Below are positions 10,456 to 62,689 of a stretch of DNA of 64,000 nucleotides, in pieces. How positions within the stretch are numbered: position 1 is the first letter of the stretch; every line of letters begins with the position of its first letter. A program made the position numbers and the translations under genes. The notes under the pieces were generated by a model. It did no database searches. It was not told where the DNA came from and saw only the letters and a program-made list of their open reading frames with translations. The DNA is from Myxococcota bacterium (GTDB lineage: Bacteria > Myxococcota_A > UBA9160 > SZUA-336), in NCBI GenBank assembly GCA_040902485.1, contig JBBDXF010000038.1:229134-293133 (forward strand). The letters are read 5' to 3'.

Positions 10456-11244
10456 ATGCGCGCGCGCCAGCTCGCCCCGATCCTGGTCCTGCTCCTCGCG
10501 GCCTGCAACGGTCCGCTGCCGTTCCTCGCCGGAGGAAAACTCACCGGCGAGAGCGCGTCCGCGCCGACCGACTGGTCGTTCGCGGGGGACTCCGGGACCG
10601 CGCAGCTCGAGACCCGGCCCGAGGATCCGTATTCGGTGAACCTCGTCTACACCGTCGTCGACGGCCAGCTCTACATCAACGCCGGCGACACCGAGACGAA
10701 CTGGGTGAAGCACATCGCGGCGAACCCCGACATGCGGCTGCGCATCGACGGAACGGTCTACGACCTGCGCGCGGTGCGAGTCACGGACACCGCCGAGATC
10801 GCGTCGTTCGCCGCGGCGTGGACGAGTCAGTCGATGTTCCGCCGCGATCCCGCGAAGCTCGACCCCGTCTGGATCTACCGGCTGGTCGCGCGTCAGCGCG
10901 CGGCCTCGTCGAGCTGGCGGCTGGTCTCGAGCAGGAGCTCGGTCATCGAGATGTCGAGCCTGGGCTCGGGGAGCAACGCGTTCGCGTCGAAGCGGAAGCG
11001 GCCGCGGGTGGCGCCGACCAGCACGACCGCGGCCGCAAGGCCGTCGGCCTTCTCGGTCCGGGCGTGCAGCGGCTGGCCGTCGCCGAGCCAGACGCGTGCC
11101 GGGCCCTGCTCGGTCTCGACCTCGAGCAGGCCGGACTTGCGGCCCATCTCGAGCATCTGCAGCACCACGAAGACCGGCATCTCGGCCAGCTCGCCGCTGA
11201 ACGCGTCGCCCGCGCCCTGCTTCGCGAACAGCACGGTCTCCTGA
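10456..11244 (+). CDS. lipoprotein with a DUF385/PNPOx-like (deazaflavin-nitroreductase-like) domain; the functional protein probably ends near 10890
   Basis: Lipobox LLLAACNG. Domain ...NLVYTVVDGQLYINAGDTETNWVKHIAANPDMRLRIDGTVYDLRAVRVTD.... No in-frame stop occurs until 11244, so the ORF tail is antisense to the convergent FHA gene and looks non-protein-like. Confidence 0.55.
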   Translation: MRARQLAPILVLLLAACNGPLPFLAGGKLTGESASAPTDWSFAGDSGTAQLETRPEDPYSVNLVYTVVDGQLYINAGDTETNWVKHIAANPDMRLRIDGTVYDLRAVRVTDTAEIASFAAAWTSQSMFRRDPAKLDPVWIYRLVARQRAASSSWRLVSSRSSVIEMSSLGSGSNAFASKRKRPRVAPTSTTAAARPSAFSVRACSGWPSPSQTRAGPCSVSTSSRPDLRPISSICSTTKTGISASSPLNASPAPCFANSTVS

Positions 11245-11576
11245 CCGTCGGGATCGGACAAGAGCGCCTCGAGCGACGCACGCGCGATGCAGAAGGTGAT
11301 CGCCGCCGAGCCCACGCCGATCCGGTCGCCCGGCTCGAGCGCGCGCGGGCCACCGATCAGCTCGCCGTTCACGAACGTGCCGTTCCGGCTCGACAGGTCC
11401 CGCACCAGGTACAGGCCGTCGTCCGTGTACACCTCGGCGTGTCGGCGCGAGGCGTCGTCCGTGGCGACCGGGAAGTCGCAGTCGCGGCCGCGCCCGATCG
11501 CGACACGCCCGCCAGCGGGGATCTCGACGGGGGCGAACGGCGGGCAGAAGAGCAGCGCTTTGCGGTCGGCGGGCAT
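10893..11576 (-). CDS. FHA domain protein with C-terminal DUF4388-like domain
   Basis: FHA signature RVAIGRGRDCDFPVATDDASRRHAEVYTDDGLYLVRDLSSRNGTFVNG...GDRIGVG. C-terminal segment LAEMPVFVVLQMLEMGRKSGLLEV is typical of DUF4388. Confidence 0.85.
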   Translation of the reverse strand: MPADRKALLFCPPFAPVEIPAGGRVAIGRGRDCDFPVATDDASRRHAEVYTDDGLYLVRDLSSRNGTFVNGELIGGPRALEPGDRIGVGSAAITFCIARASLEALLSDPDGQETVLFAKQGAGDAFSGELAEMPVFVVLQMLEMGRKSGLLEVETEQGPARVWLGDGQPLHARTEKADGLAAAVVLVGATRGRFRFDANALLPEPRLDISMTELLLETSRQLDEAAR

Positions 11577-11622: not shown

Positions 11623-13572
11623 TCACTTCGCGTCGGCGGTCCTCTCGGTCGCGCCGAGCCCCTCCATGAACGCGGCCTGCACCTGCGGCATGTACATGTT
11701 CCCGAGGTGCCCGCCGCCCGGGAACACGGTGATGCGGCCAGCGAAGACGCTCTCGAGCCAGCCGAGGTCGCTCGGCTGCAGGATGAAGTCGTCCTTGTTC
11801 GTGAACACCGCGATGCGCTCGTCTTCGCGCAGCCCGGCTTCCTGGCTGTACAGGTCGGCGGCGTCGAACAGCTGCGCGGTCGTGCGGGCGCCGCCCTCCT
11901 TCTCGACGAAGTATGGGATCGCCAGCTCGTCCATGTAGCGCTTCAGGGTATTGCTCTCGACCTCGACCGCGAACGGTCCGTGGAAGCCGCCGGCCGACCC
12001 GCCGGGAATCTCGCTGAGCGTCTTGCCGCCGCGCTCGCTGCTGGCGGCGATCGCCTGCATCGTCATCGCGCGCGAGGACAGGCCGATCAGGAACTCGGAG
12101 CCGTCGCGCGTGAACGGCAGTGTCTTGTACTTGCGGATCAGATCCTCGTCCTCGCCCTGCGCGAGCACGTAGGCCTTCTTGACCGTCTCGGTGGCCAGGT
12201 CGCGGCGCTGCGCATCAGGCCACTCGCGCGGCGCGTCGAAGTAGCTGTCGAACAGACCCGAGGCGTAGCCGAGGTTCACCGCGGGATTGATCGCGACGAT
12301 GCGCTCGAAGTGCAGCGCGCCCGGGGCCGTGTTCTTGCGCTCGAGCTGCGAGATGAACAGCGTCGCGATGCCGCCCAGCGAGTAGCCCATCAGCGACGAC
12401 GACGTGACCTTGCCGGGGTGGTTCGCCTCGATGTTGCCACGCATCTCGCCGAGCGCGCGGTACAGATCCTCGGCGTCGCTCGGCGTGTAGCCGGGATAGG
12501 TGGCGGAGAGCCCGCTCAGGATGAACTCGGGATTGAACGGGCTGCTCACGATCGCCGCCGAGTAGCCGCGCTGCCAGGCGGACTCCGCGAGCTTCACGGC
12601 GTTGGTGGTCGAGCGGTGCGAGCCGATGCCCGGAATGATGAACACGAGCGGCGCCGGCTTCTCCTGCATCCAGAGCGAGTACGGCACCGGCTTGCCCGTG
12701 GCTTGCGACGGCGCCTCGCCGCGCGCGTGCAGCGAGGGGAAGTTCGGATCGTCGAGCTTGGTCAGCATCACGCCGAGCGACGGATTCGGGTCGGCGTCGG
12801 TCCAGGCGATCTCCGGAATCTGATAGTCGCTGACCGCGATGTCGCGGTTGATCGCCCAGAGCGTGCGGACCGGCAGGTACAGGTCCATGCCGCTCTCGGT
12901 CATCATGTCGTAGGTGTTGATGCGCGAGCTGAAGCCGTTGACGGTGAACACGACGAACGGGATGCCGTAGGTCGCGACCCAGGTCGCCGGCGAGAGCGCG
13001 ACGTCGAACACCTTGCCCACGGTGTCGCGGCCGCTGCTCGGGCCGAGCATGGGGATGAAGAAGTAGAAGCCCGGCCCGATGCCCCACTTGCCGAACGCCT
13101 GGCCGACGTCCTCCTTGTAGGTCGGCACGCCGAGCGGCTTGGCGACGTCGAAGAAGCCCGCGACCCCGGCGGTGGTGTTGACCAGGAAGTTCCCCGTCTC
13201 GGTCCCCGCCTTGATCACCTCGCCCTGCAACAGCAGGCTCACGAAGCGGTCCGGGAAGTTCAAGTTGTAGGCGAAGTTGTCGATGCTCGTCCGCACCGCC
13301 CTGGGGAACACGGCGCGCCAGCCGAGCGCGACGGGCCGCACGCCGTAGTCGATCACGCCCTTGGTCGCGTGGTAGCTGCCGCGGTTGACCGGCTCGATCG
13401 GATCGTTCACGTACTGCACCAGCTCGTAGCTCTCGCCGGTGGTCTGGCGCCGGTGCTCCGACACGCCCATGACCGAGACCGTGTGCGGGCGCGCGTTGGA
13501 GTCGGGCGAAGCGCAACCGAACTGCAGCGAGCTCGCGATCGCCAACCCGATCGCGAGGAGTGTCCTGGGCAT
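11623..13572 (-). CDS. lipoprotein fusion: MlaA/VacJ-like domain plus alpha/beta-hydrolase (GxSxG) domain
   Basis: Lipobox LQFGCAS. N-terminal DPIEPVNRGSYHATKGVIDYGVRPVALGWRAV...NFAYNLNFPDRFVSLLLQG...NTTAGVAGFFDVA matches the MlaA/VacJ family. The C-terminal half contains GYSLGG nucleophile-elbow and alpha/beta-hydrolase-like segments. Confidence 0.8.
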   Translation of the reverse strand: MPRTLLAIGLAIASSLQFGCASPDSNARPHTVSVMGVSEHRRQTTGESYELVQYVNDPIEPVNRGSYHATKGVIDYGVRPVALGWRAVFPRAVRTSIDNFAYNLNFPDRFVSLLLQGEVIKAGTETGNFLVNTTAGVAGFFDVAKPLGVPTYKEDVGQAFGKWGIGPGFYFFIPMLGPSSGRDTVGKVFDVALSPATWVATYGIPFVVFTVNGFSSRINTYDMMTESGMDLYLPVRTLWAINRDIAVSDYQIPEIAWTDADPNPSLGVMLTKLDDPNFPSLHARGEAPSQATGKPVPYSLWMQEKPAPLVFIIPGIGSHRSTTNAVKLAESAWQRGYSAAIVSSPFNPEFILSGLSATYPGYTPSDAEDLYRALGEMRGNIEANHPGKVTSSSLMGYSLGGIATLFISQLERKNTAPGALHFERIVAINPAVNLGYASGLFDSYFDAPREWPDAQRRDLATETVKKAYVLAQGEDEDLIRKYKTLPFTRDGSEFLIGLSSRAMTMQAIAASSERGGKTLSEIPGGSAGGFHGPFAVEVESNTLKRYMDELAIPYFVEKEGGARTTAQLFDAADLYSQEAGLREDERIAVFTNKDDFILQPSDLGWLESVFAGRITVFPGGGHLGNMYMPQVQAAFMEGLGATERTADAK

Positions 13573-13607
13573 CGTGCGTGTCTCCTGGGCCGTTCGAGTC
13601 TTTGAAT

Positions 13608-13684
13608 TGGCGCGCCCGGCTGGACTCGAACCAGCGACCTGCGGATTAGAAGTCCGCTGCTCTATCCAGCTGAGCTACGGGCGC
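13608..13684 (-). tRNA. tRNA-Arg (anticodon TCT)
   Basis: The reverse complement folds as a cloverleaf: GCGCCCG/TA/GCTC-AGCTGGATA-GAGC/A/GCGGA-CTTCTAA-TCCGC/AGGTC/GCTGG-TTCGAGT-CCAGC/CGGGCGC-G-CCA. The anticodon loop CTTCTAA gives anticodon TCT. CCA is encoded. Confidence 0.9.
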
Positions 13685-13702: not shown

Positions 13703-15013
13703 CTAATTCGGGGCCGCGATCGGGCACGGGCTCTCCGGAAAGCAGTCGTCTCCGCGCCACTCCGCGAAGCCCGCGTAGGCGCGGATCTCGCTCGCGTCGA
13801 ACAGCCAATCGGCGTGCGCGAGGAGCCCCGGCGTGAGCACCAGCGCGCTGCGCCCGCGCACGACGACCGCCGGCGGGCCGGCGAGCTTCGCGTTCGCGGC
13901 GACCCCGTCCGCGATCGTGCGATAGGCCGAGGCAAACGCCTGCGCGGCGTCGGCGGAGTCCCAGCGCGTGAGCCAGACCAGCTCCCAGCTCTCGCCGCAG
14001 TCGAGCTGCGCGAAGCGGTCGCCGCGCCACGCGCGCAGCAGCGCGTCGCCGTCCGCCGCGGCGCCGTACTCGTCGAACAGCACTTGCAGCGTGAGCGCGC
14101 CCGCGACGTTGTCGTCGCCGGCCCGGCAGGAGGCGCCGCGAGCGAGGCGCGCGACCAGCTCCGCCACCGGCAGGCGCACGAACTCGACGGGATCGCCGTC
14201 CTCGGGGAACAGCACGCGGAGCGTCGAGAGCGGCGGCTCGCGCAGGCTCGCGTCGAGCCCCGCGCTGCCGTCGCGCGCGAAGCTCCGCGCCGCGAGCGGC
14301 GTGCCGTGCGCGTACGGAAAGATCAGCGACTCGCGCAGCAGCCGCGGCGCCTTGGCGAACGCGCCGCCTTCGCGCTCGAGCTCGCCGAGCATGCTGTCGC
14401 GCACGAAGGCGGCCGTCTCCTCGTTGCGCGCGTCGGCGCCGTCCACGTCCGCGCGCACGCCGAGCATGGTGAAGGTCGCGTCGCCCTCGAGCGCCGAGGA
14501 GAGCGCGCCGACCACGTCGTCCTGGCGGCGCAGACCGGTGAGCAGCGCGAGCGACTCCGGAAAGTGTTGGTGCTGGAGCGCGTGCACGAGCTCGTGCACG
14601 ACGATCAGCGACTGGCCGGCGTCGGCGCCCGACGCGTCGTCGCGCAGCGAGTCGAGCACGTAGAGCGTGTTGCGGCGCGGGCTGTACATGCCCGCGATCG
14701 CCTGCGACTGCAGCTCGAGCATGGTCTCGAGCAGGTCGAGCCCGGCCGGGAACACGCCGAGCGCCGCGTACGCGTCGCGGTAGCGCCGCGCGGACTCGGG
14801 TGTGTACACGCCCGCGAGCTCCTCGCGGATCACGTCCTTCACCTCGGCCTCGCCGAACCACTCGAGCCGCACCGGCGCCTGGAAGGCGAGGCCGCGCAGC
14901 GCGCTCGCCTGCGTGCGCCAGGCCGCGAGCCGCGGATCCTCGCGGCGCGCGAAGAAGGCAGGCGACGCCGCGCCCGCGGCCAGGACGAGCACAAGCCACC
15001 ACAGCCGGCGCAT
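13703..15013 (-). CDS. secreted putative zinc metallopeptidase (HEXXH)
   Basis: Signal peptide MRRLWWLVLVLAAGAASPA. HELVHALQHQH zincin-like motif. No closer family assignment is possible from sequence alone. Confidence 0.6.
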   Translation of the reverse strand: MRRLWWLVLVLAAGAASPAFFARREDPRLAAWRTQASALRGLAFQAPVRLEWFGEAEVKDVIREELAGVYTPESARRYRDAYAALGVFPAGLDLLETMLELQSQAIAGMYSPRRNTLYVLDSLRDDASGADAGQSLIVVHELVHALQHQHFPESLALLTGLRRQDDVVGALSSALEGDATFTMLGVRADVDGADARNEETAAFVRDSMLGELEREGGAFAKAPRLLRESLIFPYAHGTPLAARSFARDGSAGLDASLREPPLSTLRVLFPEDGDPVEFVRLPVAELVARLARGASCRAGDDNVAGALTLQVLFDEYGAAADGDALLRAWRGDRFAQLDCGESWELVWLTRWDSADAAQAFASAYRTIADGVAANAKLAGPPAVVVRGRSALVLTPGLLAHADWLFDASEIRAYAGFAEWRGDDCFPESPCPIAAPN

Positions 15014-23249: not shown

Positions 23250-25412
23250 CTACTTCGCGGCTCCGCCGATCTGCTGCTGGATCCACATGCGCAGCTGCGC
23301 CTTCGAGAGCGGCGTCTTCTGCAGCGCGAACTCGAGCAGGCGGCGGCCCTCGGCTTGGTGGCCGCTCTGGAGCGCGACGCGCCCGAGCGCGATCAGCTCG
23401 TCGTAGCCGACGCCCGGCGCGTAGATGTCGGGGATCGCCCGGCGCGAGACGCGGTACGCCTCGTCGTACTGCTCGAGCTCGAGCAGGCACGCCCACAGCC
23501 GGCTCTCCAGATACGGGCGCTGCGCGAGGCTCTTCGGGTCGTCACCGAGCCGCGCGAGCGCGAGCCGGTAGGCCTGGGCGGCGTCGCCGTAGCGATCGGC
23601 GTCGAACAGCGCGTCGGCGCGCAGGCGGTTCGGCTCGGGCCGATCCGGGTGCAGCCGCAGCAGCTCGTCGGCGCGACGCAATGCGGTGTCGGTGTCGCCG
23701 CGCTGGAGCGCGAGCACGCCCGCGAACACGCCCGTGCGTCCCCCGCCCGGGTGGATCCGGTGGATGCGCTCGAGCTCCGCCTCGGCGTTCGCGTAGCTCT
23801 GCGGGTCGTCCGGCGCGCCCACGACCTCGAGCGTGAACGGATCGATCGCGCGCAGGCGATGCTGCGCGACCAGCTCCGGGTTGCGCGAGGCGCTCGCGTA
23901 CAGCACGGACGCGTCGTCCACGAACACCGGCGCGTAGTCGGGCAGGCTCGCGACGATCGAGGCGAAGCCGCGCAGCGGGTTCGGCACGACCAGGAATGCC
24001 GGCGAGTACGTGCCGACCAGCCCCGCCAGCACGGTCGGATCCTGGAACGCCTGATCCGCCGCGAAAATGGCGCTGTCCGGAAACAGGAACGGCGTCTGCA
24101 AGTCGACGAAGATCTTCTGGCGCGGGTAGAGCTCCCACTCCAGGTAGCCGCCCTGGTTGGGGTGGTTCAGCACGTCGCCGGTCGCGCCCACGTTGGCCAG
24201 GAACGCGACCGCGCCGTCGGGCAGACCGGCCGTGCAGACCGGGAAGCCGCAGCGCGCCGCGAAGATCTCCGCGAGATAGCGGAACGGCAGGACCGAGAGC
24301 AGCGCGACCAGCGCCAGCGCGAGCCCACGCGGCAGCGCGGCCGACGCGAGCGACGGCGGCCGGAACGCGCCGAGCAGCGGCAGCGCGAGCAGCGCGAACT
24401 CCATGGAGAAGCGCTGCATGCGCAGGAGCAGCACCGCCCCGCCCGCGAGCAGCACCAGATGCGCGGGGCGCAGCGCCGCGCGGCGCAGGCCCGCGAGCGC
24501 CGCGAGCGCGGCGATCACCAAAAGCAGCGTGCGCAGGCTCGGCTGCGAGATCAGCAGGCCGTTCAGCGAGAGCTGCAGGAGCGACCACGGATCGACCGGC
24601 CGCAGCTCCTCGATGTACTGGCCCGCGAACGAGACCTCGGCGAACGGCGTCACCAGCAGCCCGACACCGTGCGGCGTCACGAGCACGCAGAGCATCGCGA
24701 CGGCGACCGCCGCCATCTCGCGCGGGGTCGCGGTGCGGGCCGCCGGGAAGTACCCGGTCCGCGTGAGCGCCCACTCGCCGAGGTACGCGCCCAGGATCAG
24801 CAGCAGCACCGGGTACTCGATGCCGTGCAGGTTCACCCACAGGATCGCGAGCGCCGGCAGCGCGAGCAGCCCGCGCCGCGCTTCGAGCAGGTACAGGAAC
24901 ACCGCGATCAACAGGTACGTCGCCGCGTGCGGCCGGATCGCCGTGAAACGCTCGAGCAGATACAGACCGACCAGCGTGAAGACGAAGGCCGCCCAGGGCA
25001 GCCCCTCCAGCGCGCGGCCGCGAGACGTCGGGGCAGCCGAGACCCGCAGCACCGCCAGTGCGAAGCCGAGCGTCGCCAGCGCCAGCAGCGCGCGCAGCCC
25101 GACGAGCGCCACCGGGCCGCCGAGCGCGTGGCTGGCATAGAGCCCCAGCTGGGTGAGCCAGTAGTAGTCGAGGAAGGCCGGGCTCGGGCGCAGGAACGAG
25201 AAGAACGCCGAGTCCGGGATGGCCCCTTCCGCCACGATCTGCCGGCCGGCGTTCAGGTGGTACCAGAGGTCGGTGTCGACCGCGATGATCGGCCAGCGCG
25301 CGGCGAGCACCGCCACCGCCGCGAAGAACAGCGCCAGGTAGAGAAGCGCGAGCTCCCGGCCCGACGCCCGGCCGCGAGCCAGGTTCACGAGCCCGGCCCG
25401 CAGCTCGGTCAC
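23250..25412 (-). CDS. polytopic membrane protein (>=10 predicted TM helices; GT-C/O-antigen-ligase-like) with C-terminal TPR repeats
   Basis: Long hydrophobic N-terminal ~450 aa followed by TPR-like repeats (…[40 protein letters not shown]…). GTG start chosen after AAGGAAG; start uncertain. The family assignment is inferential. Confidence 0.6.
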
Positions 25413-25559
25413 GACGCTTGCGACTCGGGTGACGATCCGCGGAATGGCTCGGCTTCCTTTCAGCGCGGCGGAATGTACCAGAACAGGGGCATCCGCTTGA
25501 CAGCATCGAGGTCGGGTCCTACGCAGAGCCCGCAGTTTTCTGCAATAGGAGAGAGATCC

Positions 25560-25847
25560 GTGAAAGTTCGCCCCCTGCACGACCGGATCCTGGTCCGGCG
25601 TCTGGACGCCGAGACCAAGACCGCCGGCGGCATCATCATCCCCGACACCGCCAAGGAGAAACCCCAGGAAGCCAAAGTCGTGGCCGTGGGCGCCGGCAAG
25701 ATCGGCGACGACGGCAAGCGCCAGGCCATGGGCGTGAAGGCCGGGGATCGCGTCCTGTTCGGCAAGTACAGCGGCAGCGACGTGAAGATCGACGGCGACG
25801 ACCACCTGATCATCCGCGAGGAAGACGTCCTCGCGATTCTCGAATAG
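25560..25847 (+). CDS. groES: co-chaperonin GroES
   Basis: (M)[45 protein letters not shown].... GTG start with AGGAGAGAG RBS. Confidence 0.9.
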
Positions 25848-27503
<1,656 letters not shown>

Positions 27504-27530
27504 GCGCCGCGCCTACCCAAGCTCGAACGA

Positions 27531-27561
27531 ACGGGCCCCGGAGATTCCGTCTCCGGGGCCC
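27531..27561. terminator. GC-rich hairpin between convergent groEL and ackA (putative bidirectional terminator)
   Basis: Perfect inverted repeat GGGCCCCGGAGA-ttccg-TCTCCGGGGCCC. Confidence 0.55.
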
Positions 27562-27575
27562 GACTCGTTTCCGGC

Positions 27576-28718
27576 TCAGCGCGCGCGCGACGCGCGCACG
27601 GTCGCGAGCGTCTCGCGCGCGATCTGGAGCTCCTCGTCGGTGCGCACGACGAGCACGCGCACGGGCGAGCCGAGGCTCCCGATCTCGCAGGCCTCGCCCG
27701 CGCCTTCGCGGTTGCGCTGCGCGTCGAGCGCGATGCCGAGGCGCGCGAGGCCCGCGCAGGCGAGCTCGCGTACGCGCGCCGCGTTCTCGCCCACGCCCCC
27801 GGTGAAGACGAGCGCGTCCACCCGGTCGAGCACGGCGGTATAGGCGCCGATGCACTTGCGGATCCGATACGCGTAGATCTCGAGCGCGAGCCGCGCGCGC
27901 TCGTCTCCCCGCGTCTCGCGCGCGAGGATCTCGCGCACGTCGTTCGTGCCGCACAGCCCGCGCAGACCCGACTCCTGGTTCAACGTCGCCTCCAGCGCGT
28001 CCGCCGAAAGCCCCTGCGCTCGCTGCACGAAGAGGGGAACCGCGGGATCGAGATCGCCGCTGCGCGAGCCCATCACGAGGCCCTCGAGCGGGGTGAACCC
28101 CATCGACGTGTCGACGCAGCGACCGTTCTCGATCGCCGCGGCGCTCGCCCCGTTGCCGAGGTGCAGCGTGATCAGGTTGAGCGACGCGAGCGGGCGGCCG
28201 AGCAGCGCGGCGGCGCGCTCCGCCACGTAGCCGTGGGAGGTGCCGTGGAAGCCGTAGCGGCGCACGCCGAGCCGGTACCAGTCCTCGGGCACGGCGTAGC
28301 GAAAGGCGCGCGGTGCGAGCGTGTGGTGGAACGCGGTGTCGAAGACCGCGACCTGCGGCACGCCCGGATAGGCTTCGAGACAGGCCTCGATCCCGAGCAA
28401 GTTGGCCGGATTGTGAAGCGGTGCGAGCCGCGCGAGCTCGCCGATCGCGCGGCACACGCCGGCGTCGACCAGCGTGGGCTCGCGGAAGCGCTCGCCTCCG
28501 TGAACCACGCGGTGGCCGATCGCCCCGGGCGCGCCGCAGCCGCGCAGCGACACATCGATGTGTCGGAACGCTTCCGGGAGATCGCGGGCCGCGCCCTCCT
28601 CCCCGATCCGCTCGAGCAGGCCGGAGGCGAGGCGCCGCTCGCCGTCCATCGCGAGCAGGCGGTACTTCACCGACGAGCTCCCGCAGTTCACGACCAGGAC
28701 GCGGTCTGCTTCCGCCAC
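27576..28718 (-). CDS. ackA: acetate kinase
   Basis: VLVVNCGSSSVKYRL...HGTSHGYV...HLGNGASAAAIENG. Confidence 0.9.
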   Translation of the reverse strand: MAEADRVLVVNCGSSSVKYRLLAMDGERRLASGLLERIGEEGAARDLPEAFRHIDVSLRGCGAPGAIGHRVVHGGERFREPTLVDAGVCRAIGELARLAPLHNPANLLGIEACLEAYPGVPQVAVFDTAFHHTLAPRAFRYAVPEDWYRLGVRRYGFHGTSHGYVAERAAALLGRPLASLNLITLHLGNGASAAAIENGRCVDTSMGFTPLEGLVMGSRSGDLDPAVPLFVQRAQGLSADALEATLNQESGLRGLCGTNDVREILARETRGDERARLALEIYAYRIRKCIGAYTAVLDRVDALVFTGGVGENAARVRELACAGLARLGIALDAQRNREGAGEACEIGSLGSPVRVLVVRTDEELQIARETLATVRASRAR

Positions 28719-47909: not shown

Positions 47910-49157
47910 CTAAATGTGTCGGATCGCTTCGGCCGGGCGCAGGCGCACGGCCTTCCAGGCCGGCCAGAGCGCGGCCAGCACCGCGGTGATCAGCGCGACC
48001 ACGACCGGCAGGATCAGGTCGCGCCGCTCGATGCGCGTGTACACGGTCGTGCCGATGCCGAACTCGGTCAGGCCGTCGGCGAAGCGGGTCAGGTCGATGC
48101 CGACCTCGCCGAGCCAGAGCACGATCGGAACCCCGACCGCCAGCCCGATCAGCGTCCCGGCCACCGTCATCACGATCGACTCGAGCAGCACCAGCGCCAG
48201 CAGCCGGCTCGACTGCAGGCCGAGCGCGCGCAGCATGCCGAACTCGCGGATGCGCTCGTAGACCATCATCAAGAGCGCGTTCGCGATCCCGAACGCCATC
48301 GCCACGAAGACCGCGCCGTAGATGACCCAGGTCATGTCGGCCATCAGGCCGAGCAGCGCCGCCATGCGCGGCTCGCGCTCCTTCCAGGTCAGCACGTCGA
48401 GCGCGGCGTCGGGCAACGCGGCGGCGAGCGCGGCCCGGGCCGTGGCGTGCAGCTCCGGCAGGCGGTCGGGATCGTCGAGCAGCACCGCGACCTCGGTCAC
48501 GCGGTCGGGCACGGACAGGAGCCGCTGCGCGTCCTCGAGGCGCAGGTACGCGTGGCTGCGGTCGAACTCCGACGACGAGCTGCGGAAGATGCCCGACACG
48601 CGGAACGCGCCGAGCCCGACCTCGCCGGGCGCGTGCACCACCACCTTGTCGCCGAGCTTCACGCGCAGCCGCTCGGCCATGGCCGCGCCGATGGCGATGC
48701 CCGGAAGGCGCCGCGAGCCGGTCGTCACGAGCGGCACCGGCAGCTTGCCCTCGACCAGCGCGCGAGAGAGGATCGAGACGCGTTGCTCGCGCAGCGGATC
48801 GACGCCGACCAGCACGACCCGCGAGCTGCGCCGCGCGCTCTGCAGCAGGCCGTCGCCGACCAGGCGCGGAGAAGCGTGCGCGCCGGGGAAGCGCTCCAGC
48901 GCCTCGACGATCGCGCGCCCGCTGTCGGGCAGGTTGCGCTGCACGTCGGGGTTCTTCTGGTAGCCCGACGCGAGCACGGCCAGGTGCCCGAGCCGCGTCG
49001 AGACGGCGTTGTCGACCATCTGGCGCACGAGCCCGTTGCTCCAGCCGACCAGCAGGAGACACGCCGAGAGCCCGACCGTGATCGCGACCAGCACGACGGC
49101 GCTGCGCCGCCAGCCGCGCAGCAGGTTCCGCCAGGCGATCACGAACAGCGTCGTCAC
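47910..49157 (-). CDS. ABC transporter permease, FtsX-like (LolC/E-type)
   Basis: N-terminal TM, large periplasmic domain, then three C-terminal TM helices of FtsX topology (…LRALGLQSSRLLALVLLESIVMTVAG…). Confidence 0.8.
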   Translation of the reverse strand: MTTLFVIAWRNLLRGWRRSAVVLVAITVGLSACLLLVGWSNGLVRQMVDNAVSTRLGHLAVLASGYQKNPDVQRNLPDSGRAIVEALERFPGAHASPRLVGDGLLQSARRSSRVVLVGVDPLREQRVSILSRALVEGKLPVPLVTTGSRRLPGIAIGAAMAERLRVKLGDKVVVHAPGEVGLGAFRVSGIFRSSSSEFDRSHAYLRLEDAQRLLSVPDRVTEVAVLLDDPDRLPELHATARAALAAALPDAALDVLTWKEREPRMAALLGLMADMTWVIYGAVFVAMAFGIANALLMMVYERIREFGMLRALGLQSSRLLALVLLESIVMTVAGTLIGLAVGVPIVLWLGEVGIDLTRFADGLTEFGIGTTVYTRIERRDLILPVVVALITAVLAALWPAWKAVRLRPAEAIRHI

Positions 49158-49159
49158 GT

Positions 49160-50401
49160 TCAGGTCGCCCGCAGCGCGTCGACGGGCCGGCCGCGACTCG
49201 CGCGGATGGCCGGCGGGATGGCGGCGACGAGGCCCACCGCAACCAGCAGCAGTGGCAGCGTCACGAGCTGATTGCGGCCGAGCGCGAACATGATCAGCGG
49301 CTCCAGGTCGAACAGCTCGATCGACGCGCGCGCGCCCTCGCCGGTGATCGGGATCGGGTGCTGCGCGAGCCAGAGCACGAGCGGAATGCCGATCGCGAAG
49401 CCGATCGCGATCCCGAGCAGGGTCAGCTGCACGGATTCGATCAGCACCAGCGCGAACACCGCGCGCGGGCGCAGCCCCAGCGCGCGCAGCACGCCGAACT
49501 CGCGCACGCGCTCGAACACCGACATCAGGATCGTGTTCAGGAGCCCGAAGCCGACCACCACGATCAGCACCGCATTGCCGATCCAGTTGCCGACGTCGTC
49601 GAGCATCATGAACTGCAGCAGGTCGGGCATGAGCTCCTGCCAGGGCAACACCTCGTAGTCTGCGCCGGGGAAGTCGGCGTCGAGCTCGCGGCCCACGCTC
49701 GCCAGACTGCCGCTCTCGGGCAGGAACACCGCGACGTGCGAAACGGCGCTGCCCGCCTCGAGGAACGCGCGCAGCTCGTCCAGGTCGACCAGTGCGCCGA
49801 AGCCGTCGAACTCGTCGTCGCCGACCGCGAACGTGCCGACCACCGTGAAGCGATCGGCCGACTGCGAGCCGAAGGCGTCGGCGGAGAGCACGATCACCGC
49901 GTCGCCGAGCGAGACGCCGAGGTTTCTCGCGAGCAGTGCGCCGAGCGTGATCTCGCGCGCGCCGTTCGCGGGCTCCGCCATGCGGCCGGCCTCGATCGAG
50001 CCGACCAGCTTCGACAGGCGCCGCTCGCGCGCCAGGTCGATGCCGAACAGCTGCACGCCGCGGCCGGTCGCGTCGTCGCGGTCGGCCGAGATCAGCCCCC
50101 AGGCCTCGAGCCGCGGCGCCCAGCCCTCCGCGCCGCTGAGCGCGTCGAGCTTGCGCTCCGCGGCGGCGTCGAGCGGCAGCGCGTAGTCGAGCGTGCGGTA
50201 CTCGCGGTAGCCGGCCAGGCTCACCTGGAAGTGGCCGGGATAGAGCCTCACCGCGTGCTCGATCCAGCGCTCGTGACTGCCGTCGCCCACGGCCAGGTTC
50301 AGCATCGAGAGCACGGTCGCGAACACGCCCGCCGCGACCGTGAGCGCGGTGCGGCGCTTGTTGCGGCCGAGGTTCCGCCAGGCGAGCCGCAACAGCATCA
50401 T
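49160..50401 (-). CDS. ABC transporter permease, FtsX-like (second copy)
   Basis: MMLLRLAWRNLGRNKRRTALTVAAGVFATVLSM... C-terminal FtsX helices (…LRALGLRPRAVFALVLIESVQLTLLG…). Its start overlaps the stop of the LolA-like gene (ATGA). Confidence 0.8.
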   Translation of the reverse strand: MMLLRLAWRNLGRNKRRTALTVAAGVFATVLSMLNLAVGDGSHERWIEHAVRLYPGHFQVSLAGYREYRTLDYALPLDAAAERKLDALSGAEGWAPRLEAWGLISADRDDATGRGVQLFGIDLARERRLSKLVGSIEAGRMAEPANGAREITLGALLARNLGVSLGDAVIVLSADAFGSQSADRFTVVGTFAVGDDEFDGFGALVDLDELRAFLEAGSAVSHVAVFLPESGSLASVGRELDADFPGADYEVLPWQELMPDLLQFMMLDDVGNWIGNAVLIVVVGFGLLNTILMSVFERVREFGVLRALGLRPRAVFALVLIESVQLTLLGIAIGFAIGIPLVLWLAQHPIPITGEGARASIELFDLEPLIMFALGRNQLVTLPLLLVAVGLVAAIPPAIRASRGRPVDALRAT

Positions 50402-58282: not shown

Positions 58283-58876
58283 CTAGCGGGGCGCTTCACC
58301 GAGCGCGCTCGCGGCCGCCGCGCCGGCCTGGTCGATCGCTTCGTCGAGTGCCTCGCCGAGCGCGCGTGCGACCGCGTCCGGGGTGTCGCCCGCGACGGGC
58401 CGCCTGGTGATGAACGTGCGATCGAGCAGCGCCTGCTGGGACGCGTCGGCCAGGCGCACCGCGAGCGCGACCACGCCCTCGTGCGCCGGCTCGAGCACGT
58501 CGTCGAAGGTGAGCAGCTCGACGGTAAGCGAGGGCGCGTCCGGCCGGGTCGCGCGGCGCAGGCCGCGCTTCTCGAACAGCTCGTGCGCGAGGCGCGCCTC
58601 GACGTAGCTCGCCGGTGGCTGCGTCCAGCGCAAGAGATCGTAGAAGCCGACCTCGACGCCGCGCCGCCACACGATGCGCCGGCGCAGGTAGTCGGCCGCC
58701 GTCACGCGGCGCAGGCGGAGCTCCGGAGCGCTCGCGCTGATCGACACGGCGTTGCCGTTCGCGGCGCTCGCCGAAGGCGCGAAGCCCGGCGAGAAGTAGC
58801 GCGGCTCGGCGGGCTGGCGCGGCGCCAGACACGCGGCCAGCAGGAGAGCTGCGGCGATCCCCAGGCGACCACTCAC
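58283..58876 (-). CDS. lipoprotein, PqiC/YmbA-like ABC-transport auxiliary component
   Basis: Lipobox LLAACLAP. ~190-aa DUF330-like protein immediately after an MCE gene. Confidence 0.65.
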   Translation of the reverse strand: MSGRLGIAAALLLAACLAPRQPAEPRYFSPGFAPSASAANGNAVSISASAPELRLRRVTAADYLRRRIVWRRGVEVGFYDLLRWTQPPASYVEARLAHELFEKRGLRRATRPDAPSLTVELLTFDDVLEPAHEGVVALAVRLADASQQALLDRTFITRRPVAGDTPDAVARALGEALDEAIDQAGAAAASALGEAPR

Positions 58877-59796
58877 GGACGCGGGCTTTCCTCGTTCGCG
58901 CGAACGGCGCGGCCGCGCACGATCGACGCCGGATCGCGCTCCAGGTAGTCGGCCAGCGTGCGCACCGACTCGAGCGTGTCCTGGAGCTCCGTCAAGCTGC
59001 TGCGCGCGTCCTCGGCCAGCGCGCTGCCGTCGGCGGTGAGCGCCGCGAACGCCGACGCCGCGTCGCGCACCGCGCCGGTCGTCTCGGCGAGCTGCGCGTC
59101 GCGCACGGCCGCGTCGAGCGAGCGCGCGGTCTGCTCGAACTGCGCGCCGGTGCGCTCGTACTGCGCGAGCACCTGCGAGACCGCGCCGCCCTCCGCGACC
59201 AGCGGCCGGATCGTCGCCTCGAAGTTCTCCACCACCGTCGTGAGGCGCGCGAGCGTCTCGCTCGCCTGCACGGTCAGCATCGGCAGCTTCATGCCCACCT
59301 CGACCACGGCCTCCTCGATGCTCTTCAGCGTCGACGGCGTCGCGGGCATGTAGTCCGGACCCGGATCGAAGGGCAGCTCTTGCACCGGGAAGCGCTTGGG
59401 ATCGAAGTAGTCGACCAGCAGGAACTTGACGCCGGTGATGCCGGCCGAGGCTACCTGGATGCGCAGCGGCGTGCGGGTCTCCTCCATCTCGCGCAGCACC
59501 GGACCCTTGCCCGCCAGGCCGAGCTTCTGCAGCACGTCCTCGTAGACCTGGCTCGTCACCTTCACGTGTCGCAGGTCGGGCGCGATCGTGATCGAAGAGA
59601 CCGAGCCCACGGGCACGCCGCGAAACTTCAGCGCCGCGCCGACCTCGAGGCCCTGCACCGACTCGTCGAAGTAGGTGACGATCGTGCGCGTCTTGCGGTT
59701 CCAGTCACCCGCGCCCAGCCAGACCAGCGCCGCGAAGGCGAGCGCGAGACCGCCCAGCACGAATGCCCCGAGCTTCCAGTAGTTGGTCGAGTTCAC
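58873..59796 (-). CDS. MCE (MlaD/PqiB-like) family protein
   Basis: N-terminal TM WKLGAFVLGGLALAFAALVWL. MCE domain ...GLEVGAALKFRGVPVGSVSSI.... Confidence 0.8.
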   Translation of the reverse strand: MNSTNYWKLGAFVLGGLALAFAALVWLGAGDWNRKTRTIVTYFDESVQGLEVGAALKFRGVPVGSVSSITIAPDLRHVKVTSQVYEDVLQKLGLAGKGPVLREMEETRTPLRIQVASAGITGVKFLLVDYFDPKRFPVQELPFDPGPDYMPATPSTLKSIEEAVVEVGMKLPMLTVQASETLARLTTVVENFEATIRPLVAEGGAVSQVLAQYERTGAQFEQTARSLDAAVRDAQLAETTGAVRDAASAFAALTADGSALAEDARSSLTELQDTLESVRTLADYLERDPASIVRGRAVRANEESPRP

Positions 59797-60551
59797 GCTC
59801 TCACTCCGCCTTCCGGCACCCGGCGATTGAAGAAGGCCGCGACGGTCGGATGGGTGCTGTGATCGCGCAGCTCGCGCGGGTCGCCCAGAGCGATCATACC
59901 TTTCGCTTCGCGGTCGAGCATCACGCAGCGGTGTCCGATCGCGAAGATGCTGGCCAGCTCGTGGGTCACGATCACCAGCGTGGTGCCGAGATTGCGCGAG
60001 AGCGTCAGGATCAGCTCGTCGAGCTCGACCGAGGTGATCGGGTCGAGGCCCGCGCCGGGCTCGTCCAGGAACACCAGCGGCGGGTCGAGCGCGAGCGCGC
60101 GCGCGATGCCCGCGCGCTTCTTCATGCCGCCCGAGAGCTCCGCGGGCAGGTGGTTCTCGAAGCCGCCCAGGCCCACCAGCCGCAGCTTGCTGCGCACCAC
60201 CTCGGCGACGTCGGCGCGCGAGAGGTCGGTCCAGGTCTCGAGCGGCAGCGCCACGTTCTGGCCCAGCGTCATCGAGCCGAACAGCGCGCCGGCCTGGAAC
60301 AGCACGCCGAAGCCCGGCATGCCGCTGCCCACGCGCGGCGGCTCGCCGTCGACCCGGATCTCGCCCTGCAGGGGCTCGTCGAAGCCGATCATGTGGCGCA
60401 TCAGCGTCGACTTGCCGCAGCCGCTGCCGCCCAGGATCACGAAGATCTCCCCGCGCATGACCTCGAAATCGAGCTGCTCGAGCAGCACGCGATCGCCGAA
60501 GCCGATCGCGACGTTCGACACCGTGATGTGTGGCTCAGAGGTCCCAGGCAT
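59793..60551 (-). CDS. ABC transporter ATP-binding protein (MlaF-like)
   Basis: Walker A GGSGCGKST. Signature LSGGMKKRAGIARA. Walker B LVFLDEP. Confidence 0.9.
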   Translation of the reverse strand: MPGTSEPHITVSNVAIGFGDRVLLEQLDFEVMRGEIFVILGGSGCGKSTLMRHMIGFDEPLQGEIRVDGEPPRVGSGMPGFGVLFQAGALFGSMTLGQNVALPLETWTDLSRADVAEVVRSKLRLVGLGGFENHLPAELSGGMKKRAGIARALALDPPLVFLDEPGAGLDPITSVELDELILTLSRNLGTTLVIVTHELASIFAIGHRCVMLDREAKGMIALGDPRELRDHSTHPTVAAFFNRRVPEGGVRA

Positions 60552-61707
60552 GGAACAGCACCGTGAAGGCCGAGTCGATCACGACCAGGAAGAACAGCGA
60601 GCTCACCACCGCCGAGGTGGTCGAGCGGCCGACGCCCTCGGCGCCGCCGCGCGTCGAGAGACCCCACTGGCAAGCGACCAGCGCGATCGCCAGGCCGAAC
60701 GCGACCGACTTCACCAGGCCCGAGCACACGTACCAGACGTCGAGCGCGTTGTGGGTCTGCCGCGCCCAGGCGGTGAACGGAACGTCGAGCGAGGCGACGC
60801 CCACCACCGCGCCGCCGGCGATCGCGAACGCGTCGCCGAGCAGCGTCAGGATCGGCAGCATCAGGGCGAGCGCGAGGATGCGCGGCAGCACCAGGTAGCG
60901 GTAGGGATCGAGCCCGATCGTGCGCAGGGCGTCGACCTCGTCGGACACGCGCATGCTGCCGAGCTCGGCGGCGAACGCCGCGCCGGAGCGTCCGGCCGCG
61001 ACCACCGCCACCATCAGCGGGCCGAGCTCGCGCGTCACGCCGATCGCGACGCCGTCCGCGACGAAGATGTCGGCGCCGTACTTGTGCAGCGTGATCGCGC
61101 CCTGGAAGGCGGTGACCAGGCCCACCAGGAACGTGATCAGGCCGATGATCGGCAGCGCGTCCGCGCCGGTGCGCTCCATGATGCGCCAGACCGAGCGCCA
61201 CGGCACGCTGCGCGGATCGCGCGCCGCGCGGCCGAACGCGACCACCGTGCTGCCGGTGAAGTCCAGGACCTGACGCGTGAACTCCCACAGCTCGAAGGTC
61301 GCGCGGCCGGCCTGCTCGAGCACCCCGGGTGCGCGCGGCGCGGGGCGCGCCTCTATCCCGCGCGGGGTGGTCGCGACCAGCTCCAGGATCTCGCGCACGC
61401 GGCCGTCCGCGCCCGCGAGCTCGGCCTCGGAGCCGCGCGCGCGCAGCTCGTCGCACAGCCCGAGCACGAGCGAGGCGGCCGCTGCGTCCAGCGAGCGCAG
61501 ACCCGCGAGATCGATGCGCACGCTCGCTGCCGGCGGCTCGAGCAGCTCGCGCATGCGCGCGAGCGCCGCCGGCGCGTCGCGCACCGCCAGGCGTCCGGAA
61601 AGGCGGAGCTCCGCGCGACCCGCCCGCGGATCGCTGCGCTCGATGCCGAAGCTCGACTCGTGCCTGGTCGCGTCTCTCACGCTGTTTCGCGTTTCCCCGA
61701 CGCGCAA
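60535..61707 (-). CDS. MlaE-like ABC permease with N-terminal STAS (MlaB-like) domain
   Basis: N-terminal ~110-aa STAS-like region (…RIDLAGLRSLDAAAASLVLGLCDELRARG…) fused to an MlaE/DUF140 permease (…ITFLVGLVTAFQGAITLHKYGADIFVADGVAIGVTRELGPLMVAVVAAGRSGAAFAAELGSM…). Confidence 0.75.
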   Translation of the reverse strand: MRVGETRNSVRDATRHESSFGIERSDPRAGRAELRLSGRLAVRDAPAALARMRELLEPPAASVRIDLAGLRSLDAAAASLVLGLCDELRARGSEAELAGADGRVREILELVATTPRGIEARPAPRAPGVLEQAGRATFELWEFTRQVLDFTGSTVVAFGRAARDPRSVPWRSVWRIMERTGADALPIIGLITFLVGLVTAFQGAITLHKYGADIFVADGVAIGVTRELGPLMVAVVAAGRSGAAFAAELGSMRVSDEVDALRTIGLDPYRYLVLPRILALALMLPILTLLGDAFAIAGGAVVGVASLDVPFTAWARQTHNALDVWYVCSGLVKSVAFGLAIALVACQWGLSTRGGAEGVGRSTTSAVVSSLFFLVVIDSAFTVLFHAWDL

Positions 61708-61747
61708 GGTAGCATGGCCCGGCGCTTAGCCGCGAAGGAGTGAGCCG

Positions 61748-62584: not shown

Positions 62585-62689
62585 CCGCATCCGAGCGAGC
62601 TTCCTCGTGCATGCCTTCCGCGCCGGCCAATACTTCGTCGCCGAACAGTTTCACGCTCGAGCCGCCGTATCGGGTGCCCGTGGAGCGGA

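What the first reader, a model, noticed from the sequence alone, without database searches (positions are those of the whole stretch)
11623..13572. MlaA/VacJ-like lipoprotein domain fused to an alpha/beta-hydrolase (GYSLGG) domain
**Seen in the sequence**
- One 649-aa lipoprotein has an N-terminal half matching the MlaA/VacJ outer-membrane lipoprotein family (DPIEPVNRGSYHATKGV...NFAYNLNFPDRFVSLLLQG...NTTAGVAGFFDVA).
- Its C-terminal half contains a GxSxG nucleophile elbow and an alpha/beta-hydrolase-like sequence.

**Established knowledge**
- MlaA acts with OmpC/F to extract mislocalised outer-leaflet phospholipids.

**Inference**
- A covalently attached lipase/esterase-like domain would suggest direct phospholipid turnover at the outer membrane, PldA-like in logic.
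- A separate STAS-MlaE/MlaF/MCE/PqiC-like system lies at 58283–61707.
Basis: partly seen in the sequence, partly recalled or inferred. Interest (0 to 1): 0.55.

Follow-up and report, generated by a model that had tools for sequence, protein, structure and literature searches.

The report
Fused MlaA channel and MlaY-type lipase
This gene encodes one protein that joins an outer-membrane lipid channel (MlaA family) to a lipase-like enzyme related to Pseudomonas MlaY, a fusion architecture already reported in 2023 as support for the two-protein MlaYZ pathway, so it is a real but expected member of a known kind.

Summary
Window 11623-13572 (minus strand) is one intact 649-aa ORF. It has a signal peptide with a near-lipobox, a strong MlaA/VacJ domain (residues 56-244) and a C-terminal alpha/beta-hydrolase domain with GYSLGG.

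The hydrolase half is homologous to P. aeruginosa MlaY (PA3238): 31% identity over 345 aa, E=6e-38. Ser398, Asp595 and His622 align exactly with MlaY S187, D388 and H415. H415 is experimentally required in MlaY. The triad is conserved in 144-145 of 145 fused and stand-alone relatives.

The fusion is not an artefact. 246 of 308 fetched homologues are fused, always MlaA first. Two related metagenome-assembled genomes (88% and 72% identity) carry the intact gene in the same gene neighbourhood.

Two details are new here. The fused MlaA domains form their own clade, separate from MlaZ. Split operons in the order mlaA-like then hydrolase also exist.

Enzyme activity and substrate remain inferred. 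This is a new member of a known kind, of low to moderate interest.

The parts
11623..13572 (-). Complete gene for the 649-aa MlaA-domain / MlaY-like hydrolase fusion protein, stop codon included
   Evidence: ORF list. Full-length homologues of 630-680 aa reach down to 34% identity. The intact gene sits in the same gene neighbourhood in L001 and L002.
13513..13572 (-). Signal peptide with a near-lipobox (residues 1-20, MPRTLLAIGLAIASSLQFGC); Cys20 is the probable lipidation site
   Evidence: Translation. The Cys column is shared by close relatives. The strict lipobox pattern is not met here (Q at -3) but is met in 110 of 211 fused homologues.
12841..13407 (-). MlaA/VacJ domain (residues 56-244), the predicted outer-membrane phospholipid channel module
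   Evidence: Pfam PF04333 E=3.2e-52. PDB MlaA by sequence and by fold.
12694..12840 (-). Conserved connecting segment (residues 245-293) between the MlaA domain and the hydrolase core; contains near-invariant P262 and invariant F278
   Evidence: Alignment A1. Modelled with pLDDT of about 85-93.
11695..12693 (-). MlaY-like alpha/beta-hydrolase domain (residues 294-626) as aligned to P. aeruginosa MlaY residues 86-419
12379..12381 (-). Codon of Ser398, the nucleophile in G-Y-S-L-G; aligns with MlaY S187
   Evidence: Ser in 145 of 145 relatives.
11788..11790 (-). Codon of Asp595 (N-K-D-D-F-I-L); aligns with MlaY D388
   Evidence: Asp in 144 of 145 relatives, one Glu.
11707..11709 (-). Codon of His622 (G-G-H-L-G-N); aligns with MlaY H415, whose H415A mutant is non-functional
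   Evidence: His in 144 of 145 relatives. H415A phenotype in PMC10374164.
11824..12273 (-). All-helical insertion of about 150 residues (residues 434-583) between two core strands of the hydrolase fold; a likely cap/lid over the active site
   Evidence: Secondary structure of the AlphaFold2 model. Pfam aligns residues 356-622 to only 165 profile positions. The lid role is an inference.
13608..13684 (-). tRNA-Arg(TCT) gene 35 nt upstream of the start codon on the same strand; a conserved neighbour, not a functional part
   Evidence: ARAGORN. Same position in L001 and L002.

Best explanation
The gene encodes a single-chain version of the MlaZ/MlaY type of outer-membrane lipid-asymmetry system. 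The N-terminal MlaA-family domain is anchored by a signal peptide and a probable lipid anchor. It sits in the inner leaflet of the outer membrane and forms a channel through which glycerophospholipids that have strayed into the outer leaflet are pulled inward. The covalently attached MlaY-like alpha/beta-hydrolase domain hangs on the periplasmic side under the channel. It receives the lipid and cleaves its acyl ester bonds with the Ser398-Asp595-His622 triad, so degradation products are released inside the cell rather than at the surface. Shown here: the domain identities, homology to MlaY, conservation of the triad, and integrity and conservation of the fusion. Inferred: the channel-to-enzyme hand-off, the lipase chemistry, and the substrate.
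For: - **Homology to MlaY.** The C-terminal half is homologous to the P. aeruginosa alpha/beta-fold hydrolase that lies directly upstream of a VacJ lipoprotein in the actP / DUF485 / betaine-binding-protein neighbourhood, i.e. the mlaYZ locus. BLASTP gives E=6e-38 over residues 294-626 against 86-419.
- **Same gene pair elsewhere.** A hydrolase-then-VacJ pair also occurs in Skermanella and Fusobacterium.
- **Catalytic triad.** S398, D595 and H622 align residue for residue with MlaY S187, D388 and H415. They are invariant in 30 fused proteins of 33-72% identity. They are conserved in 144-145 of 145 fused plus stand-alone relatives.
- **Fusion is the norm.** 246 of 308 fetched homologues are fused, always MlaA then hydrolase. 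The fused gene is intact, with the same neighbours, in two independent metagenome-assembled genomes.
- **Model quality.** The full-length AlphaFold2 model has pTM 0.82, which is consistent with, though not proof of, a defined arrangement of the two domains.
- **Published function of the split system.** MlaY and MlaZ act in one pathway, redundant with MlaA-MlaBCDEF. E. coli PldA substitutes for them. [quoted passage not shown] The authors cite MlaA-MlaY fusion proteins as evidence of direct hand-off (PMC10374164).
- **Later work.** MlaY-dependent cardiolipin loss was reported in cells (PMC11977310).
Against: - No biochemical activity has been measured for this protein or for any fused homologue. 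MlaY itself is called a 'putative lipase' in the source paper.
- The Pfam alpha/beta-hydrolase hit is below the gathering threshold. The same is true of MlaY itself.
- In a limited neighbour-joining tree the fused MlaA domains do not group with MlaZ. Support for fused plus MlaZ is 0%, the fused clade has 93% and the MlaZ clade 92%. The channel half is therefore not demonstrably an MlaZ orthologue.
- The lipobox is atypical.
- I could not inspect model coordinates, so the active site facing the channel exit is unverified.
- Only 64 kb of the genome is visible, so redundancy with a canonical MlaA/MlaC pathway or with PldA is unknown.
Confidence: 0.75

Rival explanations
1. The same architecture, but the C-terminal domain works as an acyltransferase or lipid-remodelling enzyme. 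It would move an acyl chain from the extracted phospholipid to another acceptor instead of hydrolysing it.
For: The Ser-Asp-His alpha/beta-hydrolase fold supports both hydrolysis and acyl transfer. Fold hits include acyltransferases and thioesterases, such as deacetylcephalosporin C acetyltransferase 2vat and thioesterase DcsB 7d78. The reaction products of MlaY are explicitly unknown (PMC10374164).
Against: E. coli PldA, a pure phospholipase, substitutes for MlaYZ, and MlaYZ substitutes for PldA. MlaY-dependent loss of cardiolipin is reported. The top fold hits are mostly esterases and lipases.
Confidence: 0.1
2. The hydrolase acts on a substrate other than diacyl glycerophospholipids, with the MlaA domain serving as membrane anchor or delivery device. 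Candidates are lysophospholipids, lipoprotein acyl chains, and lineage-specific outer-membrane lipids such as ether lipids, sphingolipids or ornithine lipids.
For: The fused MlaA domains form their own clade, distinct from MlaZ and from canonical MlaA. The family is common in Myxococcota, Planctomycetota and Verrucomicrobiota (names). From general knowledge, not tested here, the envelope lipids of these groups differ from those of Pseudomonas. A large helical cap of about 150 aa could confer a different specificity.
Against: The catalytic and flanking motifs are shared with MlaY. MlaA-family channels are known only for glycerophospholipids. No evidence here points to another substrate.
Confidence: 0.1
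3. The hydrolase-like domain is a non-catalytic lipid receiver, a tethered stand-in for MlaC, that passes intact phospholipids to the MCE/ABC transporter encoded at 58283-61707.
For: The window has a STAS-MlaE / MlaF / MlaD / PqiC-like operon with no recognisable MlaC. The hydrolase domain sits where MlaC would dock.
Against: Near-perfect conservation of Ser, Asp, His and the GxSxG elbow across 145 diverged relatives implies selection for catalysis. MlaY H415A is non-functional. The transporter operon is 45 kb away, and nothing links it to this gene.
Confidence: 0.04
4. The fusion is an artefact: two adjacent genes joined by a frameshift, a lost stop codon or a mis-assembly in this sequence.
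For: Split versions exist. In L015 a 264-aa MlaA gene ends 3 nt before, and in frame with, a 441-aa hydrolase gene. Y-then-Z operons occur in Pseudomonas, Skermanella and Fusobacterium.
Against: 246 fused homologues from many independent assemblies share the same architecture and length. The connecting segment is conserved. Two syntenic metagenome-assembled genomes carry the intact fusion. The split L015 hydrolase has its own signal peptide, which the fused proteins lack at that position. The one apparent close 'stand-alone' copy, P0052, is simply cut by a contig end.
Confidence: 0.01

Closest known systems
P. aeruginosa MlaY (PA3238) and MlaZ (PA3239) two-protein lipid-asymmetry pathway (Guest et al. 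2023, PMC10374164)
   Same: It pairs a MlaA-family outer-membrane protein with a MlaY-type alpha/beta-hydrolase. The hydrolase half is 31% identical to MlaY (E=6e-38), and the Ser/Asp/His triad aligns with S187/D388/H415. The likely mechanism is the same: extract outer-leaflet phospholipid, then degrade it in the periplasm.
   Different: Here the two parts form one polypeptide with MlaA first, the opposite of the mlaY-then-mlaZ gene order. There is one leader peptide instead of two. The MlaA domain does not cluster with MlaZ in the tree. It matches canonical MlaA over its whole length, whereas MlaZ proteins match the fusion-domain profile only over positions of about 3-150 of 196.
MlaA-family proteins fused to a MlaY homologue, e.g. 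UniProt A0A3A4W9L3 from an unclassified Desulfobacteraceae (described in PMC10374164, Fig. 6B-C)
   Same: The architecture class is the same: a MlaA domain plus an AB_hydrolase domain homologous to MlaY. In that paper the predicted structure shows the MlaA domain sitting on top of the hydrolase.
   Different: I could not retrieve that sequence, so direct identity to the window protein is untested. The window protein comes from a 71% G+C lineage, and its nearest relatives are MAGs labelled 'Deltaproteobacteria bacterium'. No fused member has been studied experimentally.
Canonical MlaA (VacJ) of E. coli and Klebsiella, acting with OmpC/F, MlaC and MlaFEDB
   Different: Canonical MlaA is about 250 aa, has no enzyme domain, and hands intact lipid to soluble MlaC. 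The NCBIfam MlaA equivalog score is 83.7, far below its 375 cut-off.
PldA/OMPLA outer-membrane phospholipase A
   Same: The analogy is functional only: both would destroy phospholipids mislocalised to the outer leaflet. PldA and MlaYZ substitute for each other genetically.
   Different: The two are unrelated in sequence and fold. PldA is a beta-barrel with a Ser-His-Asn site that acts within the outer leaflet. Here the enzyme is a periplasmic alpha/beta-hydrolase fed by a channel. The protein has no PldA-family Pfam hit.

Membership tests
MlaA/VacJ family (Pfam PF04333) | Match to the family profile above the curated threshold, over the whole domain | tested here: met
   177.5 bits vs cut-off 25; profile positions 2-193 of 195
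MlaA/VacJ family (Pfam PF04333) | MlaA fold as seen in solved structures | tested here: met
MlaA/VacJ family (Pfam PF04333) | Lipoprotein signal peptide with a lipobox cysteine | tested here: inconclusive
   The leader ends in LQFGC. The strict PROSITE-type pattern fails at -3 (Q). The Cys is conserved in close relatives, and 110 of 211 fused homologues have a strict lipobox.
MlaA/VacJ family (Pfam PF04333) | Orthologue-level identity with enterobacterial MlaA (NCBIfam equivalog NF011672) | tested here: not met
   83.7 bits vs cut-off 375. It is a family member, not an equivalog.
MlaA/VacJ family (Pfam PF04333) | Complex with a trimeric porin; phospholipid channel activity | not testable with these tools
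   Needs biochemistry or structure determination.
MlaY (PA3238-type periplasmic alpha/beta-hydrolase) | Sequence homology to P. aeruginosa MlaY across the catalytic domain | tested here: met
   BLASTP E=6e-38, 31% identity, residues 294-626 vs 86-419 of 453. The MlaY gene was identified by its position upstream of the VacJ gene in the PA3234-PA3239-like neighbourhood.
MlaY (PA3238-type periplasmic alpha/beta-hydrolase) | Ser-Asp-His triad equivalent to S187/D388/H415 | tested here: met
   S398, D595 and H622 align exactly. Conserved in 145/145, 144/145 and 144/145 relatives.
MlaY (PA3238-type periplasmic alpha/beta-hydrolase) | Genetic or physical coupling to a MlaA-family partner | tested here: met
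   Covalent fusion here. Adjacent genes in Pseudomonas, Skermanella, Fusobacterium and L015.
MlaY (PA3238-type periplasmic alpha/beta-hydrolase) | Phospholipid-degrading activity that maintains outer-membrane asymmetry | not testable with these tools
   Needs enzyme assays and complementation.
MlaZ clade of the MlaA family (sensu Guest et al. 2023) | MlaA domain clusters phylogenetically with P. aeruginosa MlaZ rather than with canonical MlaA | tested here: not met
   Neighbour-joining tree with 42 sequences, 203 columns and 100 bootstraps: fused clade 93%, MlaZ clade (Pseudomonas, Fusobacterium, Skermanella) 92%, fused plus MlaZ 0%. Sampling is limited and no maximum-likelihood tree was made, so this is a weak negative.
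Alpha/beta-hydrolase fold superfamily | Pfam alpha/beta-hydrolase profile above the gathering threshold | tested here: not met
   Abhydrolase_6 gives 23.0 bits vs 26.3. MlaY itself also scores below threshold.
Alpha/beta-hydrolase fold superfamily | Canonical fold with a GxSxG nucleophile elbow | tested here: met
PldA/OMPLA | Sequence or fold similarity to the beta-barrel phospholipase A1 | tested here: not met
   No such Pfam, PDB or fold hit. The resemblance is functional analogy only.

The most novel reading that the evidence does not exclude
The fused proteins may not be merely joined mlaYZ operons. They may be a separate, ancient lineage of hydrolase-coupled MlaA modules. Three observations point that way. 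Their MlaA domains form their own clade. The domain order matches a second operon type, mlaA-like then hydrolase. More than 1,000 clusters at 50% identity are related to the hydrolase half. In Myxococcota, Planctomycetota and Verrucomicrobiota this lineage could be the principal, self-contained system for clearing outer-leaflet phospholipids, working without MlaC, an ABC transporter or PldA.
Probability: 0.25. Interest if true: 0.45.

Novelty: new member of a known kind. Interest (0 to 1): 0.27.

Why it matters
A covalent MlaA-lipase fusion is the strongest comparative argument that MlaA-family channels can hand lipids directly to an enzyme rather than to a carrier. That point is already made in the literature. 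The window protein adds one more uncharacterised example from a high-G+C deltaproteobacterial or Myxococcota-like lineage.

Its practical value is as a single-gene, self-contained candidate for two kinds of work. One is biochemical reconstitution with one polypeptide and no partner stoichiometry problem. The other is structural study of how lipid leaves the MlaA pore and enters a hydrolase active site, which is unresolved even for MlaYZ.

The survey here also shows that the hydrolase-coupled form is far more widespread than the four genera discussed in the original paper. Fused forms predominate among the relatives nearest to this protein.

Tried and rejected
- **AlphaFold database search.** Foldseek against afdb50, meant to recover MlaY and A0A3A4W9L3 by fold, could not run because the library was unavailable.
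- **Genome scan.** The single genome-contig scan used patterns from the query alone, so it found only two close relatives. It gave synteny but no broad taxonomy.
- **Origin of the fusion.** A neighbour-joining tree of the hydrolase domains was meant to test for a single origin. It was uninformative because many 'stand-alone' entries are fragments cut at contig ends. I draw no conclusion from it.
- **P0052.** This 422-aa protein, 68% identical to the C-terminal half, looked like a split relative. It starts at base 3 of its contig, so it is a truncation and was rejected as evidence of a split gene.
- **Reverse-order fusions.** Longer stand-alone homologues (535-657 aa) were checked for a C-terminal MlaA domain. 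None has one.
- **Pairwise scores.** Scores of the MlaA domain do not discriminate between families: P. aeruginosa MlaZ 85.5 bits, E. coli MlaA 85.1 bits, Ralstonia VacJ about 120 bits. I therefore relied on the tree.
- **Solved structures.** A profile search of the PDB found no solved homologue of the hydrolase half.
- **Transcription signals.** Promoter and terminator scans around the gene found nothing.
- **Mla-like ABC operon.** Nothing beyond co-occurrence in the same 64 kb supports it.
Full report
**1. The observation**

The window is about 71% G+C throughout, with no compositional break at the gene.

Pfam places a complete MlaA domain at residues 56-244: E=3.2e-52, 177.5 bits against a 25-bit cut-off, profile positions 2-193 of 195. 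Solved MlaA chains match the same residues by sequence (8i8r_D E=8e-20, 5nuo_D 1e-18). With a 30-sequence profile the E-value reaches 1e-33.

The C-terminal half gives only a sub-threshold Abhydrolase_6 hit (23.0 bits vs 26.3), so I tested it further. An AlphaFold2 model built on a 30-sequence alignment is confident (pLDDT 83.7, pTM 0.82). Only the post-signal linker (residues 16-51) and the last six residues are disordered.

'Lipoprotein' is probable but not proven, because the leader ends in LQFGC and Q at -3 breaks the strict lipobox pattern. Close relatives have canonical LxGC or LxAC boxes, and 110 of 211 fused homologues with leaders satisfy the strict pattern.

**2. The fusion is not an artefact**

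A full-length search returned 186 proteins. More than 100 clusters of 630-680 aa cover at least 90% of the query, down to 34% identity. Several are annotated by their sources as 'MlaA / pimeloyl-ACP methyl ester carboxylesterase'.

Two independent metagenome-assembled genomes carry the intact gene: L001 at 88% identity and L002 at 72%. Both share the same neighbourhood: NadE, a 436-aa unknown protein, tRNA-Arg(TCT), the fusion gene, and an FHA/DUF4388 protein. L001 also retains the amidohydrolase gene that follows.

The segment joining the domains (residues 245-293) is itself conserved. The one close 'hydrolase-only' relative, P0052, is cut by a contig end.

**3. Identity of the C-terminal domain**

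A tblastn search of residues 260-649 against annotated plasmid records hit an 'alpha/beta fold hydrolase' in P. aeruginosa, Skermanella and Fusobacterium. In P. aeruginosa this 453-aa gene lies 3 nt upstream of a 267-aa 'VacJ family lipoprotein'. The pair follows cation/acetate symporter, DUF485 and glycine-betaine-binding protein genes. From my own knowledge of the PAO1 map, that is the PA3234-PA3239 region.

Counting residues in the translated sequence places GYS187LG, NAD-D388 and GG-H415, which are exactly the residues published for MlaY (PMC10374164).

BLASTP of the window protein against this MlaY gives 31% identity over 345 aa with E=6e-38, aligning residues 294-626 to 86-419. In that alignment S398, D595 and H622 sit on S187, D388 and H415.

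The hydrolase-then-VacJ gene pair recurs in Skermanella and Fusobacterium.

In an alignment of 95 fused and 50 stand-alone relatives, the Ser is present in 145 of 145, the Asp in 144 of 145 (one Glu) and the His in 144 of 145. The GxSxG glycines and a PGxG motif after the third core strand are also near-invariant. The PGxG motif is a likely oxyanion-hole region, which is an inference.

A HMMER scan of 1.84 billion representative proteins with the C-terminal half found 1029 clusters at E<=1e-3 and 202 at E<=1e-30. They are a mixture of fused proteins of about 600-680 aa and stand-alone proteins of about 410-480 aa.

MlaY itself also scores below Pfam thresholds, so the weak Pfam hit is a property of the family and not a sign of decay.

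**4. What is already known**

Guest, Lee, Wang and Silhavy (PNAS 2023, PMC10374164) established the following:
- P. aeruginosa MlaZ (PA3239, MlaA-like) and MlaY (PA3238) form a second lipid-asymmetry pathway, redundant with MlaA-MlaBCDEF.
- E. coli PldA suppresses the double-mutant defects.
- From InterPro, some MlaA homologues carry an alpha/beta-hydrolase domain homologous to MlaY. Their example is A0A3A4W9L3 from a Desulfobacteraceae, with 40.46% identity to MlaY.

They proposed that outer-leaflet glycerophospholipids are funnelled through the MlaZ channel to MlaY and degraded.

Later work reports MlaY-dependent cardiolipin loss on sphingosine treatment (PMC11977310). It also reports an effect of mlaYZ overexpression on the CtpA protease (PMC12569750). 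A 2024 MlaA review repeats the model (PMC11131202).

**5. Most likely mechanism**

Shown here:
- a secreted, probably lipid-anchored protein;
- a complete MlaA fold;
- a MlaY-homologous hydrolase with an intact, conserved triad;
- an all-helical insertion of about 150 residues (434-583) between core strands, as in lipase caps;
- a confidently modelled two-domain assembly.

Inferred:
- the MlaA domain forms the inner-leaflet channel;
- the hydrolase sits beneath it in the periplasm;
- lipids leaving the pore enter the capped active site and are deacylated;
- the products are released into the periplasm for recycling.

I put 0.75 on this mechanism and about 0.97 on the domain identities. The rival explanations section lists the rivals: acyl transfer, another lipid substrate, a non-catalytic MlaC surrogate, and an artefact.

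**6. Nuances found here that are not in the paper as far as I could read**

(a) The domain order in all 246 fusions is MlaA then hydrolase, the reverse of the mlaY-then-mlaZ operon order.

(b) A split operon in the fusion's order exists. In L015 a 264-aa MlaA gene is followed after 3 nt by a 441-aa homologue that has its own Sec signal peptide and an intact Ser/Asp/His. So both gene orders occur in nature, and the fusion plausibly arose from the Z-then-Y type.

(c) In a neighbour-joining tree of MlaA domains (42 sequences, 203 columns, 100 bootstraps), the fused domains are monophyletic at 93% and the three MlaZ proteins at 92%. The two groups are never sisters. MlaZ proteins match the fused-domain profile only over its first ~150 of 196 positions, whereas canonical MlaAs match end to end. 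With this limited sampling, I do not file the N-terminal half as an MlaZ orthologue. It is a MlaA-family domain of its own clade, coupled to a MlaY-type enzyme.

(d) Named sources place fused members in Myxococcota, Planctomycetota and Verrucomicrobiota (Limisphaerales), in addition to 'Deltaproteobacteria' MAGs.

**7. Context**

The window holds only one MlaA-domain ORF and one MlaY-like ORF.

The operon at 58283-61707 encodes a PqiC-like ABC_trans_aux lipoprotein, a MlaD/MCE protein, an ABC ATPase and a STAS-MlaE fusion. It is real, but it is 45 kb away. No MlaC is evident next to it, and I have no evidence that it cooperates with the fusion protein.

No sigma-70-like promoter or intrinsic terminator was detected around the gene. 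The start codon lies 35 nt downstream of the tRNA-Arg gene.

**8. Verdict**

This is a genuine, intact MlaA-domain / MlaY-type lipase fusion. However, the architecture and its mechanistic reading were published in 2023. I class it as a new member of a known kind. Interest is low to moderate (0.27), mainly as a convenient single-polypeptide target for the still-missing biochemistry and structure of the MlaA-to-lipase hand-off.

Noticed in passing
window 13703-15013 (-): A 436-aa ORF just upstream of the tRNA-Arg gene has an N-terminal hydrophobic leader and an HExxH motif (VVHELVHALQH) but no Pfam hit at E<=1e-3. It is conserved at the same position in L001 (79% identity) and L002. It may be an uncharacterised secreted metalloprotease.
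   Followed up: partly
window 13608-13684 (-) and 13573-13607: tRNA-Arg(TCT) ends only 35 nt upstream of the fusion gene's start codon on the same strand, and this is conserved in L001 and L002. No sigma-70-like promoter was found in between, so the gene's promoter is unknown and it may be co-transcribed with the tRNA.
   Followed up: partly
window 10893-11576 (-): An FHA plus DUF4388 (PATAN-like) protein is encoded 46 nt downstream of the fusion gene on the same strand, with conserved synteny in L001 and L002. It may be an operon partner with no obvious lipid function.
   Followed up: partly
window 58283-61707 (-): A Mla/Pqi-like transporter operon encodes a PqiC-like ABC_trans_aux lipoprotein (197 aa), a single-MCE MlaD protein (307 aa), an ABC ATPase (252 aa) and a MlaE permease with an N-terminal STAS (MlaB-like) domain fused to it (390 aa). 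No MlaC gene is evident beside it. The two ORFs upstream (61726-62520 and 62581-63726) have no Pfam hits.
   Followed up: partly
L015 3203-5326: A split version in the fusion's order: a 264-aa MlaA gene is followed after 3 nt, in the same reading frame, by a 441-aa MlaY-like gene with its own Sec signal peptide and no lipobox Cys. This is the opposite gene order to Pseudomonas mlaY-mlaZ.
   Followed up: yes
proteins P0237, P0251, P0261, P0262, P0263, P0271, P0192: These stand-alone MlaY-like hydrolases of 535-657 aa carry a C-terminal extension of 100-250 residues with no Pfam match. The extension is not a MlaA domain, and its nature is unknown.
   Followed up: partly
L003 (NZ_CP137508.1 46505-53506): A P. 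aeruginosa record deposited as a 96-kb 'plasmid' carries what looks like the chromosomal actP-to-mlaYZ region next to a recombinase-family gene. The same appears in two other P. aeruginosa 'plasmid' records (H2, H7). These may be excised or mobilised chromosomal segments, or mis-assigned replicons.
   Followed up: no
window 24001-28000 and 48001-50000: AT skew is unusually high in 2-kb bins (0.31 and 0.20 at 24-28 kb; 0.20 at 48-50 kb) against about 0 elsewhere. Long overlapping ORFs lie on both strands at 22.6-27.5 kb. I did not examine these regions further.
   Followed up: no
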